Shown: positions 1 to 64,000 of the stretch, piece by piece
Layout: each line of letters starts with the position of its first letter
Numbering within the stretch: the first letter of the stretch is position 1
Assembly: GCA_951406725.2 (NCBI GenBank)
Contig: OX597820.1
Span: 80,848,001 to 80,912,000, forward strand
DNA from: Octopus vulgaris
Taxonomy: Eukaryota
DNA length: 64,000 nt
Direction of reading: 5' to 3'
Program-made: the position numbers

Positions 1-3000
1 AGACACACTTGAAAGCTTAGGAGGTGGTCGCGGAGGTTAGATATTTGAAATATCGTTGCCTATAGAAAAGTATATATATATGTAACATATGACAATTTAT
101 GTAAGCAAAACATACGTTGTACTGAATGTGATGTAAACGTAATTTAGTTGACAACGCCAGACGATATATAATATTGCGGCAGTATTTCAATTGAACGTTC
201 ATGTAACTCCATGTATATTACATTTGCAATGTCATCGTAGAAATAAGTGGCTCTCCTCAAATGATCTAAGATAATGCTTTCACTATTTCATCGATGTATA
301 TTTGAGAGAATGCCTTCCAATTTACATTGCTTGATGTTTTTCTCTAGGACATAAATCCGTTGATAGCCTACGTGATAAGCTGAAGGAAGCTGTTGAAGCG
401 AAAGACAAAGGCTATTTACAAAAGATTGTACAAGAAAGCGTGTCTGCCGGAATGCCAGAGCTGGATGACGATATCTTGAAAGCTCGAAGTGCGTTAGACA
501 TACTTGAAGGCGGATCTGGAGGTTAGCACATGCATTTAACTGTCGCTTGTGCGTAAATGGCGCCTTAAATATAAATTATAATATCTCTGACATATAATAT
601 CAATGTGTAACAATTTCATTTTTCAAATTCAATATGGTTGTCATTTTGAAATTGTGTTAGAATTTAAAGTAAAATTTTCATCATGTCATCCTGGTGTCAT
701 CGATTTGGTTTGATAGATGTGAAATCAGCGACTTCACTCAGAGACCGGTTAACAGAATTGATGCAAGCGAAAGATGCTGCGGGATTGGACAAAGCCATAT
801 CGGAATGTGAATCGGCAGAATATCCGGAACTTGGACCTCACTTGCGCAAAGCCCGGGATGTACTTGAAACACTGGGTGGTGGGCGTGGAGGTTAGATCTG
901 GTTTCTATTTTTGATGAGATTTCCAGTGCAAAATGCACAATTATTTATGTCATATTACCTGGAGAATTTCAGATATTTATTCATTGGAAAATGAAACGTA
1001 ATATAGAATCTAGCACGTTGGAAAGCTTTTATAATGATATCAACATTACAATGCATGGAAGAGTGCAGAAGCCTGCGTCTGTGAGGGCAATATAAATAAC
1101 TGCATAATATATGTATTCAGAAAAACACACACAAATACACACACTGAAAAATAGGCATACACACACACACAAACACACATACACGCACACCACATCCACA
1201 TTTTATACTTACAATGTAAGCATATATCACTTCCAACACATTCTATAATCTGCAATATATTCGCTTTCAATACATTCTATATTTACGATGTGAGGACATG
1301 TCAGCAGCACTTAATGGAACAGAGACATCATCGTCCTGTAATTCCCGCTTTGGCTTCATCTTCCCATTAGTATAAAAACCTTTGTCAAAGTGATGGTTTT
1401 GTGGAAAAATATTCACGTGTAACTTTTCGTTGAACACACCAATTCTATCCGTGTATGCATGTGTGAATGTGTTTGTGTGTGAAGTGTGTTTAATCTTATT
1501 TATGTTTGTTTGGATTTGATTGTGAGTTTCCGTGCGTTTCGGTGTGTGTTTCTGCCTGCTTCTATTTGTTTGTGTATGATCCTGTATGTGAGATTATTGG
1601 CAAACGGATGTTTTTGCTTGTGTTTTTACTCTTTGGTATTGTGTGCATGACATCACTAAAGACATATACAGAAATTATTTGCAAGTTTGTTTATTGCGTT
1701 GTTAAAATACTCTGTCAGGGACGAAGACGCCCGAATCACTTCGCCGAAAACTAAAGTCTGCTATGAAGCAGGGAGATAAAGATACACTGGACAAAGTAAT
1801 TCACGAATGCATCGCTGCTGGAATGCCAGAATTAGACGTAGACATAAGCGTCGCTCGAGACGTATTGAAAGACGTTAAAATTTCACCTCCAACAGGTACA
1901 TAGCATTCACTTTGCTTTCAAACGCCTATTGTACTAATAGAATATTATACATTCTTCTATTATGATATCGAAACATCATTTGAAAGCGCCTCTTTTATGA
2001 GGCTATTGAAACTTTTCATTAATAATTATGTTTAGCGATGAATGCTGTGTTTCATACACGAAGTAAGTATAACGTTCATAAAACTTCCTTTGCCAGACAT
2101 GAAAACCGTGGAAAGTTTACGAGATCAGCTAGAAAAAGCAACGAAACTGAAAGACAAAGTAGCTCTCAGGCAAATCATTGAAGACTGTGAAGCCGTTGCA
2201 TATCCTGAATTGAGTTTTGATCTGTCAAAAGCGAGAGACACACTTGAAAGCTTAGGAGGTGGTCGCGGAGGTTAGATATTTGAAATATCGTTGCCTATAG
2301 AAAAGTATATATATATGTAACATATGACAATTTATGTAAGCAAAACATACGTTGTACTGAATGTGATGTAAACGTAATTTAGTTGACAACGCCAGACGAT
2401 ATATAATATTGCGGCAGTATTTCAATTGAACGTTCATGTAACTCCATGTATATTACATTTGCAATGTCATCGTAGAAATAAGTGGCTCTCCTCAAATGAT
2501 CTAAGATAATGCTTTCACTATTTCATCGATGTATATTTGAGAGAATGCCTTCCAATTTACATTGCTTGATGTTTTTCTCTAGGACATAAATCCGTTGATA
2601 GCCTACGTGATAAGCTGAAGGAAGCTGTTGAAGCGAAAGACAAAGGCTATTTACAAAAGATTGTACAAGAAAGCGTGTCTGCCGGAATGCCAGAGCTGGA
2701 TGACGATATCTTGAAAGCTCGAAGTGCGTTAGACATACTTGAAGGCGGATCTGGAGGTTAGCACATGCATTTAACTGTCGCTTGTGCGTAAATGGCGCCT
2801 TAAATATAAATTATAATATCTCTGACATATAATATCAATGTGTAACAATTTCATTTTTCAAATTCAATATGGTTGTCATTTTGAAATTGTGTTAGAATTT
2901 AAAGTAAAATTTTCATCATGTCATCCTGGTGTCATCGATTTGGTTTGATAGATGTGAAATCAGCGACTTCACTCAGAGACCGGTTAACAGAATTGATGCA

Positions 3001-63000: not shown

Positions 63001-64000
63001 AATATTGTGCCACATTCTAAACTTTTACATAAAATATACTAAAATAGGTACTTGTTTCAAATTATTCATACATATATATATATATATATATATATATATA
63101 TATATATATATATATATATATATATATAGAGGGCATTATTATACATACATGCCTCACGCTGATAATTTCTTGTTAAGATTCCTTATTAAGAAGTTATCCT
63201 TAATTGTTAAATTATATATATATATATATATATATATATATATATATATATATATGAGATAAACCTTTTTTCCGATTAGATAAAAAGTCTCCTGCCTATT
63301 TGCGCAACCTATTATCAAGAGGTATCAGACAGAAAAATGCATCATGTTTACAAGAGGCTATTAATGAATGCGAAGCAGCTAAATATCCGGAATTATCCTT
63401 TGATCTGCGCAAAGCCAGAGACGTTTTAGAACAACTCACTGGACATCGTAGAGGTTTGCATCTTCTTGCACTCTTGTTGCGTGCAGACAAAGTGGCTAGA
63501 TATCGACAAATTTATAAATTCTCGCTTTTTTTACGAGTTTAAAATATTCGTTTATTTCATATCAGTAAACATTTTATGATTTCATAAAATATAATCGAAA
63601 CATAGATTAATAAAAACAGACTTTAGATATCAATATTTAAATTACAATAACGCGACAAGTTACAAATGTTCTCTCTTTTTTTGCTCAGAAATGTAAATAA
63701 CAATTGCACGTTATTGATGGCTTCTGTTTCGATGAATGCATATGCATATAATTCTATTTATTTGTATCTTTCTCAGTTCATATATAATATGTGCGCGTGT
63801 GTGTGTTGATGTGTATATACTTATATATTGTTAGTGTGGAATAGAACATCGTATTATAATTGTGTCATGTTTACAATATTTCAAGCACAAATTTCTGTGC
63901 AACTGGAGCATGCTTAGTGAAGTGATTGTGAGAATCCATTAATACCAGCCAAATTTTGATTACTAGGAACACTGACACCTGAGTCTTTACGAGAAAAGTT

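What the first reader, a model, noticed from the sequence alone, without database searches (positions are those of the whole stretch)
1..64000. One exon per module: a hidden giant repeat-protein gene with at least 94 frame-compatible exons
Seen: the 'small ORFs' are really 174/177-nt phase-1/phase-1 exons. There are 92 complete and 2 partial ones, none with a stop or frameshift, and the series runs off both window edges. Each encodes a 58-59 aa unit with three amphipathic segments, a PEL turn and usually a GGGxG linker. Joined, they give about 5,360 aa with no other domain. Inference: this is a beads-on-a-string giant structural or ruler-like protein, organised like the nebulin/titin repeat regions but built from a module I cannot assign to a named family. 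I have an unverified recollection of similar helical repeats in molluscan hillarin/KY-like transglutaminase-domain proteins; treat that only as a lead.
Basis: partly seen in the sequence, partly recalled or inferred. Interest (0 to 1): 0.9.

Follow-up and report, generated by a model that had tools for sequence, protein, structure and literature searches.

The report
Octopus KY-like gene's giant repeat array
The window is the middle of an octopus gene of the KY/hillarin type, in which about a hundred small exons each encode one three-helix bead; two thirds of them are near-identical copies from a very recent amplification, and the gene's function is still unknown.

Summary
The + strand carries 92 complete exons (72 of 174 nt, 20 of 177 nt), all AG..GT, phase 1/1, with no stops, plus partial exons at 1-35 and 63967-64000. 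That is 5,356 codons.

They are not 94 independent exons. Exons 1-66 are 16 full copies and 2 partial copies of a 2,235-bp four-exon unit, mostly 99.7-100% identical with introns included. Only 33 exon sequences are distinct.

The 26 diverged exons keep the protein while silent sites are saturated (pS 0.75, pN 0.40). No decayed module lies in the introns.

The locus matches two partial Octopus bimaculoides models, XP_014780069.1 and A0A0L8GL38, both named uncharacterized. Identity per exon is 88-100%, and 20 of 20 predicted junction residues agree.

Their C-terminal tail recurs in a 1,720-aa protein labelled Argonauta hians. That protein has a transglutaminase-like core and three KY-type Ig-like domains ahead of 10 modules.

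The module matches no Pfam family or solved structure. AlphaFold predicts separate three-helix bundles on flexible linkers.

Transcription of the amplified part and the protein's function remain untested.

The parts
1..35 (+). Partial exon: the last 35 nt of a D-type module exon, cut by the left edge of the window
   Evidence: Identical to the end of exon 4 (2236-2270). The donor GT is at 36-37. The profile hit covers 2-34.
1..37230 (+). Higher-order repeat array: 16 full units of about 2,235 bp plus a partial unit at each end. Each unit holds four exons, A (174 nt), B (174), C (177) and D (174). The array runs off the left edge of the window.
   Evidence: The best self-match lag is 2,235 bp. 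Excluding unit 9, units 1-15 differ pairwise by 0-8 mismatches. Unit 9 differs by 18-24 because of a misaligned microsatellite stretch. Unit 16 differs by 34-51. Units 1-15 have 37 variable columns, none in exons. The last partial unit, 36098-37230, is 93.9% identical to unit 7.

Exon starts:
- A: 348, 2583, 4818, 7053, 9287, 11522, 13756, 15991, 18226, 20463, 22698, 24933, 27167, 29402, 31634, 33868, 36098
- B: 717, 2952, 5187, 7422, 9656, 11890, 14125, 16360, 18595, 20832, 23067, 25302, 27536, 29771, 32003, 34237, 36467
- C: 1719, 3954, 6189, 8423, 10658, 12892, 15127, 17362, 19599, 21834, 24069, 26303, 28538, 30770, 33004, 35238
- D: 2097, 4332, 6567, 8801, 11036, 13270, 15505, 17740, 19977, 22212, 24447, 26681, 28916, 31148, 33382, 35612
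348..521 (+). Exon 1, type A of the repeat unit (MPEL turn, GGSG linker)
717..890 (+). Exon 2, type B (YPEL turn, GGGRG linker)
1719..1895 (+). Exon 3, type C (177 nt, MPEL turn, non-glycine linker)
2097..2270 (+). Exon 4, type D (YPEL turn, GGGRG linker)
33868..36097 (+). Unit 16, the diverged edge copy of the array (exons 61-64)
   Evidence: 40 differences from the unit consensus. Exon 64 (35612-35785) has 11 nucleotide changes, all amino-acid changing. Exon 63 has 2.
38345..38518 (+). Exon 67 (YPEL type)
42049..42222 (+). Exon 68 (type A)
   Evidence: 97.7% identical to P0152 residues 1-43
42540..42713 (+). Exon 69 (type B)
   Evidence: 96.5% to P0152
44484..44660 (+). Exon 70 (type C, 177 nt)
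   Evidence: 98.3%
45185..45358 (+). Exon 71 (type D)
   Evidence: 98.2%
46408..46581 (+). Exon 72 (type A)
   Evidence: 96.5%
46875..47048 (+). Exon 73 (type B)
   Evidence: 87.7%
47656..47832 (+). Exon 74 (type C, 177 nt)
   Evidence: 100%
48262..48435 (+). Exon 75 (type D)
   Evidence: 98.2%
48899..49072 (+). Exon 76 (type A)
   Evidence: 98.2%
49334..49507 (+). Exon 77 (type B)
   Evidence: 96.5%
50852..51028 (+). Exon 78 (type C, 177 nt)
   Evidence: 98.3%
52092..52265 (+). Exon 79 (type D)
   Evidence: 92.3% over 52 residues
55161..55334 (+). Exon 80 (type A). In neither long public model.
   Evidence: 98.2% identical to the fragment P0019
56025..56198 (+). Exon 81 (type B). In neither long public model.
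56481..56657 (+). Exon 82 (type C, 177 nt). In neither long public model.
57892..58065 (+). Exon 83 (type D). P0153 starts inside it.
58395..58568 (+). Exon 84 (type A)
   Evidence: 93.0% to P0153
58899..59072 (+). Exon 85 (type B)
   Evidence: 98.2%
59364..59537 (+). Exon 86 (type C, here 174 nt)
   Evidence: 100%
59882..60055 (+). Exon 87 (type D)
   Evidence: 96.5%
60215..60388 (+). Exon 88 (type A)
   Evidence: 96.5%
60789..60962 (+). Exon 89 (type B)
   Evidence: 94.7%
62087..62260 (+). Exon 90 (YPEL-like type). No type C exon lies between exons 89 and 90.
   Evidence: (100%)
62653..62826 (+). Exon 91 (type A)
   Evidence: 96.5%
63280..63453 (+). Exon 92 (type B)
   Evidence: 93.0%
63967..64000 (+). 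Partial exon 93: the first 34 nt of a type C exon, cut by the right edge of the window
   Evidence: The acceptor AG is at 63965-63966. The profile hit covers 63969-63998. The same ten residues follow exon 92 in P0153 and follow exon 79 in P0152.

Best explanation
The window is the central repeat region of one large gene of an octopus closely related to Octopus bimaculoides. The gene is of the KY/hillarin type.

The predicted protein has three parts. The first is an N-terminal head: a transglutaminase-like core, three KY-type Ig-like domains and a charged helical stretch. The second is a long chain of 58-59-residue modules, one per exon. The third is a unique tail of about 220 residues. Head and tail lie outside the window.

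Each module is predicted to fold on its own into a small three-helix bundle. Three out of four modules are joined to the next by a glycine-rich flexible linker, so the array would be a long flexible chain of beads.

Modules alternate between an MPEL type and a YPEL type and form a four-module super-repeat (A-B-C-D). One such four-exon unit was amplified at least 16 times very recently. This added about 3,700 residues of near-identical sequence.

Every exon is a multiple of three bases with the same phase at both ends. Any run of exons can therefore be skipped in frame, so the length of the chain can be set by splicing and by copy number.

Shown: the exon anatomy, the amplification, constraint on the diverged exons, the match to public models, and the link to a protein with a KY-type head.

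Inferred:
- that the head is joined to this array in this genome;
- that the amplified exons are spliced in;
- that the chain works as a flexible spacer or tether on the cytoskeleton, by analogy with what is reported for KY (sarcomere, filamin C) and hillarin (septins, cleavage furrow, axon hillock).
For: Exon anatomy: 92 of 92 exons are intact, and the donor and acceptor consensus is kept. In the 30 distinct exons the donor reads A at -2 and G at -1 in 30 of 30, G at +5 in 26 of 30, and the acceptor has a pyrimidine at -3 in 29 of 30.

Constraint: over 435 pairs of the 30 distinct exons, mean pS is 0.75 (saturated) and mean pN 0.40. The median dN/dS is 0.32 in the 220 pairs where dS is defined. 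In the diverged part, DNA similarity between units survives only in exons, in 4 exon-exon matches. The other 12 matches are intronic interspersed or inverted repeats. No decayed module is found in the introns. In array units 1-15, 0 of 37 variable columns fall in exons, which make up 31% of the unit. For the 12 substitution-only columns outside unit 9, P = 0.011.

Public models: exons 68-79 match P0152 (XP_014780069.1) and exons 84-92 match P0153 (A0A0L8GL38), in order, at 88-100% identity per exon. 20 of 20 junction residues agree, including E, D and V.

In-frame skipping: XP_014780069.1 goes from exon 79 straight to partial exon 93 in frame. P0155 lacks about four modules that P0152 has.

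Head and tail: the P0152 tail (residues 1545-1769) is 79% identical to the tail of P0155. P0155 has Transglut_core (94-202), three Ig-like_KY stretches and 10 modules. P0083, a fragment with the same head, is 90% identical to P0155 residues 79-946 and stops after its first module. An unrelated KY-type protein, P0143, also carries 5 modules after its Ig-like_KY domains.

Fold: the single module gives pLDDT 85.5 with three helices. The three-module natural fragment P0001 gives pLDDT 86.5, pTM 0.40, nine helices and linkers of lower confidence.

Period: mean identity is 0.475, 0.48 and 0.46 at lags 4, 8 and 12, 0.44 at lag 2, and 0.37-0.39 at lags 1-9 when odd.

Family biology, from papers: Drosophila hillarin is at the cleavage furrow and interacts genetically with a septin mutant, and C. 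elegans Ltd-1 shows an actin-like pattern (passage in PMC3718969). Leech hillarin is at the axon hillock (passages in PMC3081291). KY is a transglutaminase-like muscle protein, and filamin C is mislocalised when KY is lost (abstract starts in the listing).
Against: No transcript data were available. No public model found here contains the amplified exons 1-66, exon 67 or exons 80-82.

The models found are short: 1,563, 1,769 and 1,720 residues. A search for forms of 3,097-5,000 residues sharing the tail found none. Forms above 5,000 residues were not searched.

The protein labelled Argonauta has only 10 modules, so a short product may be the norm.

The public models are themselves predictions. 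The junction agreement therefore shows consistency, not proof of splicing.

The donor sites are unusual: T at +3 in 23 of 30.

The edge exon 64 carries 11 changes, all amino-acid changing. That looks like relaxed constraint there.

The near identity of the array copies could in part come from the assembly.

The head was never seen in this genome. The link rests on two steps of homology.

No function of any member's helical modules is documented in the papers I saw.
Confidence: 0.72

Rival explanations
1. Only the diverged exons (67 onward) are used. The 37-kb amplified array is a young tandem duplication, or an assembly expansion, inside an intron or the 5' region. Its exons are rarely or never spliced into mRNA, so the real protein has about 1,500-2,500 residues.
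For: None of the public models found includes an array exon. P0152 starts inside exon 68. The closest stored match to an array exon is 86% identical. The copies are too young for their intact frames to prove use: units 1-15 have no exonic difference at all. The edge exon 64 has 11 changes, all amino-acid changing.
Against: All 66 array exons keep open frames and AG/GT sites. 0 of 37 variable columns fall in the 31% of the unit that is exon. Subsets of units share the same variants (for example alignment columns 595, 749 and 1030), as real copies would and artefactual ones need not. An older short-read assembly would collapse such an array, which could explain its absence from the older models. 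That last point is my inference.
Confidence: 0.2
2. The window holds two or more separate genes or pseudogene fragments of a module-only protein family, not one transcription unit joined to a KY-type head.
For: Two different public models (P0152, P0153) cover different exon sets. Many stored hits are module-only fragments of 44-192 residues. P0151 consists of 30 modules and nothing else.
Against: All exons lie on one strand, in one phase, with no start-like or stop-like terminal exon in 64 kb. P0152 and P0153 share the same downstream modules and tail. P0155 joins head, modules and tail in one model. The short fragments look like single exons or partial models.
Confidence: 0.06
3. The array is a satellite-like repeat whose open frames are an accident of recent copying, with no protein made from any of it.
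For: The 16 units are near identical, so their openness is not independent evidence. The AG/open/GT filter alone also passes 24 windows on the - strand.
Against: The 26 diverged exons keep the module at 33-58% identity while silent sites are saturated. The flanking intron DNA no longer aligns. The same module occurs in many other proteins, 240 hits at E <= 0.001.
Confidence: 0.02

Closest known systems
KY (kyphoscoliosis peptidase) / hillarin / LTD-1 group of transglutaminase-like cytoskeletal proteins
   Same: The apparent ortholog P0155 and the fragment P0083 have a Pfam Transglut_core match and three Ig-like_KY stretches. Another KY-type protein, P0143, also has modules after these domains.
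   Different: No member that I know of is described with about a hundred helical modules, and no paper found here mentions them. The head is outside the window and was not seen in this genome. Whether the catalytic residues are kept was not tested.
Nebulin and titin repeat regions (one module per exon, super-repeats, recently amplified blocks)
   Same: One module per exon, symmetric phases that allow in-frame skipping, a super-repeat (here 4 modules), and a block of near-identical amplified units. The comparison with nebulin and titin is from my own knowledge.
   Different: There is no sequence relation: no nebulin or immunoglobulin Pfam match in 30 exon peptides. The module is a predicted three-helix bundle of 58 residues, not a 35-residue actin-binding helix or an Ig/Fn3 domain.
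Spectrin repeats and other tandem three-helix bundles
   Same: Three helices per unit, arranged in tandem.
   Different: The unit is half the length of a spectrin repeat (about 106 residues, recalled). Flexible glycine linkers replace a continuous connecting helix. There is no Pfam Spectrin match and no significant structural match. The best Foldseek E-values are 1.5 for one module and 0.025 at TM 0.19 for three modules, the latter to a designed repeat protein.
An uncurated helical repeat found in many eukaryotic proteins (pattern roughly L-R-x-x-L-x-x-A-I-x-x-x-D-x-x-x-L-x-x-x-I-x-E-x-E-x-x-G-L-P-E)
   Same: The module profile finds the same pattern in stored proteins that have a myosin head (P0060, P0116). 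It also finds it in proteins with a sub-threshold RUN match (P0137) or EF-hands (P0147), and in repeat-only proteins.
   Different: Those matches are partial, often covering only helices 1-2, and score 10-25 bits per repeat. Their organisms are unknown to me because the names could not be fetched.

Membership tests
KY / hillarin-type protein | Transglutaminase-like core domain (Pfam PF01841) | tested here: inconclusive
   Absent from the window: 30 exon peptides and 6 intronic ORFs gave no match. Present in P0155 (residues 94-202, 25.1 bits against a cut-off of 23) and in P0083 (27.2 bits). These are linked to the window only through the shared tail and modules. The upstream flank was not available.
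KY / hillarin-type protein | KY-type immunoglobulin-like domains (Pfam PF23265) | tested here: inconclusive
   Absent from the window. Three stretches each in P0155 (215.8 bits) and in P0083 (223.1 bits). Same indirect link as above.
KY / hillarin-type protein | State of the Cys-His-Asp catalytic triad in the core | not tested
   The Pfam tool prints no alignments, and no solved relative was found by sequence. By eye, the place where I recall the catalytic Cys reads G-S-Y in P0155, P0083 and P0143. This is recalled, not tested.
Orthology with O. bimaculoides LOC106876157 | Same exons in the same order at high identity, with the same junction residues | tested here: met
   21 exons at 88-100% identity, in order. 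20 of 20 junction residues agree.
Any Pfam family for the module | A score at or above the curated cut-off | tested here: not met
   0 of 30 exon peptides. The best was B12-binding_2 at 19.3 bits against a cut-off of 23. A precomputed tag PF24398.2 on P0152 was not reproduced by hmmscan even at E <= 10. I do not know what that family is.
Nebulin/titin-like gene organisation (a way of working, not homology) | One module per exon, symmetric phases, super-repeat | tested here: met
Nebulin/titin (homology) | Sequence match to nebulin repeats or to Ig/Fn3 domains | tested here: not met
Spectrin repeat | A three-helix unit of about 106 residues matching Pfam Spectrin or a solved spectrin fold | tested here: not met

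The most novel reading that the evidence does not exclude
Octopods have turned a KY/hillarin-type cytoskeletal protein into a giant, length-tunable tether or spring. With all exons used it would have at least about 110 three-helix beads and more than 7,000 residues. Its length would be set by in-frame exon skipping and by a copy-number-variable four-exon array that is still expanding. It would be an invertebrate counterpart of the titin/nebulin principle, built from an undescribed bead, possibly serving the unusual muscle or the large neurons of cephalopods.
Probability: 0.2. Interest if true: 0.7.

Novelty: new variant of a known kind. Interest (0 to 1): 0.45.

Why it matters
It ties an octopus gene annotated only as 'uncharacterized' to the KY/hillarin group. 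Loss of the vertebrate member causes myopathy, and the fly and leech members sit at septin-rich sites.

It shows that the public models found here are fragments of a much larger locus.

It defines a 58-residue three-helix module that the Pfam copy used here does not hold. The module also turns up in myosin tails and other proteins, so it is a candidate for a new family entry.

The 16-copy, 99.7-100% identical four-exon block inside a coding region is a clean case of ongoing exon amplification. It is likely to vary between individuals and to be collapsed in short-read assemblies, so it bears on gene annotation in cephalopod genomes.

Tried and rejected
- Pfam on single exons found nothing above cut-off.
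- PDB by sequence with the module profile found only designed helical proteins, E >= 0.005. With P0155 it found nothing.
- Foldseek against the PDB had no match at E <= 0.001 for the one-module or the three-module model.
- The ESM Atlas gave no usable hit for a module or for the P0152 tail.
- Pfam on the P0152 tail found nothing; the best was E 0.11.
- The search for forms of 3,097-5,000 residues sharing the tail found none. This is weak evidence, as the tool itself says.
The organisms and names of P0001-P0150 stayed unknown.
- Rfam and the tRNA scan of the window found nothing.
- Six intronic ORFs had no Pfam match. I had taken the ORF at 40395-40631 for a mariner-type helix-turn-helix from memory, and this was not confirmed.
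- A search for decayed modules in the long introns found none.
- Paper searches: LOC106876157 gave 0. Hillarin + transglutaminase + repeat gave 0. PF24398 gave 0. Kyphoscoliosis peptidase + octopus gave 2, neither about this gene. Octopus + transglutaminase-like + repeats gave 1, irrelevant. Kyphoscoliosis peptidase / mollusc / tandem repeat listed nothing relevant.

Rejected ideas:
- A bacterial or viral origin. The sequence has introns with AG/GT borders, and its closest matches are octopod.
- Homology to nebulin, titin or spectrin (see the membership test).
- Reading the GGGRGG linkers as RNA-binding RGG boxes. I considered this only; nothing tests it.
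Full report
**What is in the window.** The sequence is AT-rich (GC 0.29-0.37), has no N and is full of microsatellites. On the + strand there are 92 complete exons with an AG acceptor and a GT donor. 72 are 174 nt and 20 are 177 nt. All start with two bases of a split codon and end with one, and none holds a stop. The tail of one more exon is at 1-35 and the head of another at 63967-64000. 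Together the complete exons hold 5,356 codons. A profile built from the modules and run over every six-frame ORF finds these 94 pieces and nothing else of note. No decayed copy lies in the introns, and the - strand gives only 9-11-residue chance hits.

The best self-match of the window is at a lag of 2,235 bases. Positions 1-37230 are a higher-order tandem array: 16 full units plus a partial unit at each end. Each unit carries four exons, which I call A, B, C and D. Leaving unit 9 aside, units 1-15 differ from each other by 0-8 mismatches in 2,235 bases. Unit 9 differs by 18-24 because of a misaligned microsatellite stretch. Unit 16 has 40 differences from the consensus, and the final partial unit is 93.9% identical. 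As a result only 33 of the 92 exon sequences are distinct. 62 of the 92 are exact copies of four exons. The independent evidence is thus about 30 exons, not 94.

**Are the exons under constraint?** For the 30 distinct exons (four from the array, 26 diverged) the mean synonymous difference is 0.75, which is saturated. The mean non-synonymous difference is 0.40. Where dS can be computed (220 of 435 pairs) the median dN/dS is 0.32. In the diverged part, DNA similarity between units survives only in exons (4 exon-exon matches). The remaining 12 matches are intronic interspersed or inverted repeats.

Inside the array the copies are too young for such a test. Still, 0 of 37 variable columns in units 1-15 fall in exons, which make up 31% of the unit. 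For the 12 substitution-only columns outside unit 9 this has P = 0.011. Against this, the edge exon 64 carries 11 changes, all amino-acid changing.

**Splice signals.** Among the 30 distinct exons the donor region reads A at -2 and G at -1 in 30 of 30. It reads T at +3 in 23, A at +4 in 16 and G at +5 in 26. The acceptor has a pyrimidine at -3 in 29 of 30 and a T-rich tract. T at +3 is unusual for a donor, from my own knowledge. It is probably inherited with the duplicated unit.

**The module.** The consensus is xKSPxxLRxxLxxAxKxKDKxxLxxxIxECExAGYPELxxDLxxARxxLxxLxGGxG. AlphaFold on the alignment of single exons predicts three helices at 4-17, 20-33 and 36-54, with pLDDT 85.5. None of the 30 exon peptides reaches a Pfam cut-off. 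The profile finds only designed helical proteins in the PDB, at E >= 0.005. Foldseek finds nothing below E = 1.5.

Modules alternate between an MPEL type and a YPEL type. Mean identity is 0.475, 0.48 and 0.46 at lags 4, 8 and 12, 0.44 at lag 2, and 0.37-0.39 at lags 1-9 when odd. The four-module super-repeat is therefore old. Types A, B and D end in glycine-rich linkers, and type C does not. The period is broken once, because no type C exon lies between exons 89 and 90.

**Multi-module shape.** I folded a natural stored fragment with three consecutive modules instead (P0001, 192 residues, aligned with 11 other fragments). It gives nine helices with pLDDT above 90 in the bundles and about 70 in the 9-10-residue linkers. 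pTM is only 0.40. High local and low global confidence is what independent beads on flexible linkers would give. This is a prediction, not a measurement. Foldseek on this model found nothing significant; the best match had E 0.025 and TM 0.19.

**What gene it is.** The module profile finds 240 proteins at E <= 0.001 among 1.84 billion representatives. Most are 44-130-residue fragments. A word-indexed search for longer proteins returned XP_014780069.1, 'uncharacterized protein LOC106876157 [Octopus bimaculoides]' (P0152, 1,769 residues). It also returned A0A0L8GL38_OCTBM (P0153, 1,563 residues).

Exon by exon, window exons 68-79 match P0152 residues 1-684, and exons 84-92 match P0153 residues 16-536. 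The matches are in order and 88-100% identical. The single residue predicted for each split codon agrees with the models at 20 of 20 junctions, including E, D and V. The window is thus the same locus in a close relative of O. bimaculoides. The identity is too low for me to call it the same sequence, and I did not determine the species.

Both models continue beyond the right edge of the window. Counting the partial exon 93, there are 15 further module hits and then a unique tail of about 220 residues. P0152 jumps from exon 79 to exon 93 in frame. Exons 1-67 and 80-82 are in neither model.

**The head.** A search with the tail alone (P0152 residues 1545-1769) found P0155, 'uncharacterized protein LOC115214248 isoform X1 [Argonauta hians]'. 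It has 1,720 residues and is 79% identical over the tail. P0155 has a Transglut_core match (94-202), three Ig-like_KY stretches, a charged stretch, 10 modules, and then the tail. Its modules 3-10 line up in order with P0152 at 68-80% identity, leaving out about four modules.

P0083 came out of the module search on its own. It is 90% identical to P0155 residues 79-946 and stops just after its first module. It looks like the head of such a gene cut off where the repeats begin. An unrelated KY-type protein, P0143, has five modules after its Ig-like_KY domains.

The link from this window to a head rests on homology through two steps, because the flank was not available. If all exons were used, I estimate at least about 110 modules and more than 7,000 residues. 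This is my arithmetic, not an observation.

**A wider family.** Weaker, often partial matches to the module occur in stored proteins with a myosin head (P0060, P0116). They also occur in proteins with a sub-threshold RUN match (P0137) or EF-hands (P0147), and in repeat-only proteins. Their names and organisms could not be fetched.

**How it most likely works.** Shown: the anatomy, the constraint and the family link. Inferred: the modules form a long flexible chain between a KY-type head and a unique tail. Because every exon is symmetric, chain length can be set by exon skipping. The in-frame skips in the public models fit this. Length can also be set by the copy number of the array.

The papers I saw place relatives on the cytoskeleton. 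Fly hillarin is at the cleavage furrow and shows a septin interaction, and worm Ltd-1 shows an actin-like pattern (passage in PMC3718969). Leech hillarin is at the axon hillock (passages in PMC3081291). KY is a transglutaminase-like muscle protein, and filamin C is mislocalised when it is lost (abstract starts in the listing). A spacer, tether or spring role is therefore my best guess. Nothing here tests it.

**Rivals.**
- The array may be skipped or be partly an assembly product (0.2).
- There may be several genes rather than one (0.06).
- There may be no protein at all (0.02). This is contradicted for exons 67-92.

**Novelty.** My searches of the paper library found nothing on this gene or its repeats. 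The gene is partly annotated, and the family of its head is known. What I count as new is the scale of the array, the young four-exon amplification and the uncurated module. I therefore file it as a new variant of a known kind.

**Left unchecked:**
- the flanks of the window;
- any transcript data;
- the closed collections (metagenome and viral contigs);
- cluster names;
- proteins longer than 5,000 residues;
- the meaning of the precomputed tag PF24398.2 on P0152;
- the joined spliced model.

Noticed in passing
window 35612-35785 (exon 64), also 35238-35414 and 36098-36271: The copies at the right edge of the array carry amino-acid changes only. Exon 64 has 11 nucleotide differences from the D consensus, all non-synonymous. 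Exon 65 has 2, both non-synonymous, plus a changed base in its acceptor tract. Exon 63 has 2 differences, with both a synonymous and a non-synonymous share.
   Followed up: partly
window, donor sites of all exons (for example 522-529, 891-898): The donor consensus is AG|GTTAG, with T at +3 in 23 of 30 distinct exons and never G. This is unusual for U2-type introns as I recall them.
   Followed up: partly
window 39018-39382 and 43396-43797; 47204-47417 and 57215-57423: Two pairs of dispersed intronic repeats, 73-74% identical. They are probably interspersed elements. ORFs over them gave no Pfam match.
   Followed up: partly
window 40269-40781, 45696-45938, 53212-53478: Long imperfect palindromes (self-matches on the opposite strand, 69-73% identical) inside introns. 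Their nature is unknown.
   Followed up: no
window 40395-40631 (+): A 79-codon ORF in the 3.5-kb intron between exons 67 and 68. It reminded me of the N-terminal helix-turn-helix of mariner-type transposases. Pfam gave no match at E <= 0.01.
   Followed up: yes
window 61097-61321; 57050-57250; many CA/TA tracts (for example 1130-1200, 51300-53100): A TATC tetranucleotide array of 57 copies, a long run of a three-base (ATT-type) repeat (reads as poly-I/L/Y), and many dinucleotide microsatellites fill the introns.
   Followed up: no
stored proteins P0155, P0083, P0143 (outside the window): Where I recall the catalytic cysteine of transglutaminase-like cores (G-x-C), these KY-type heads read G-S-Y. 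If the recollection is right, the head is not an active enzyme. This was not tested.
   Followed up: no
stored protein P0152: The database lists a precomputed Pfam tag PF24398.2 for this protein. hmmscan against the Pfam copy here did not reproduce it even at E <= 10.
   Followed up: partly
window exon modules, alignment column 30: One cysteine per module is kept in 23 of 30 distinct modules, in the ...I-x-E-C-E... motif at the end of helix 2. Its role is unknown.
   Followed up: no
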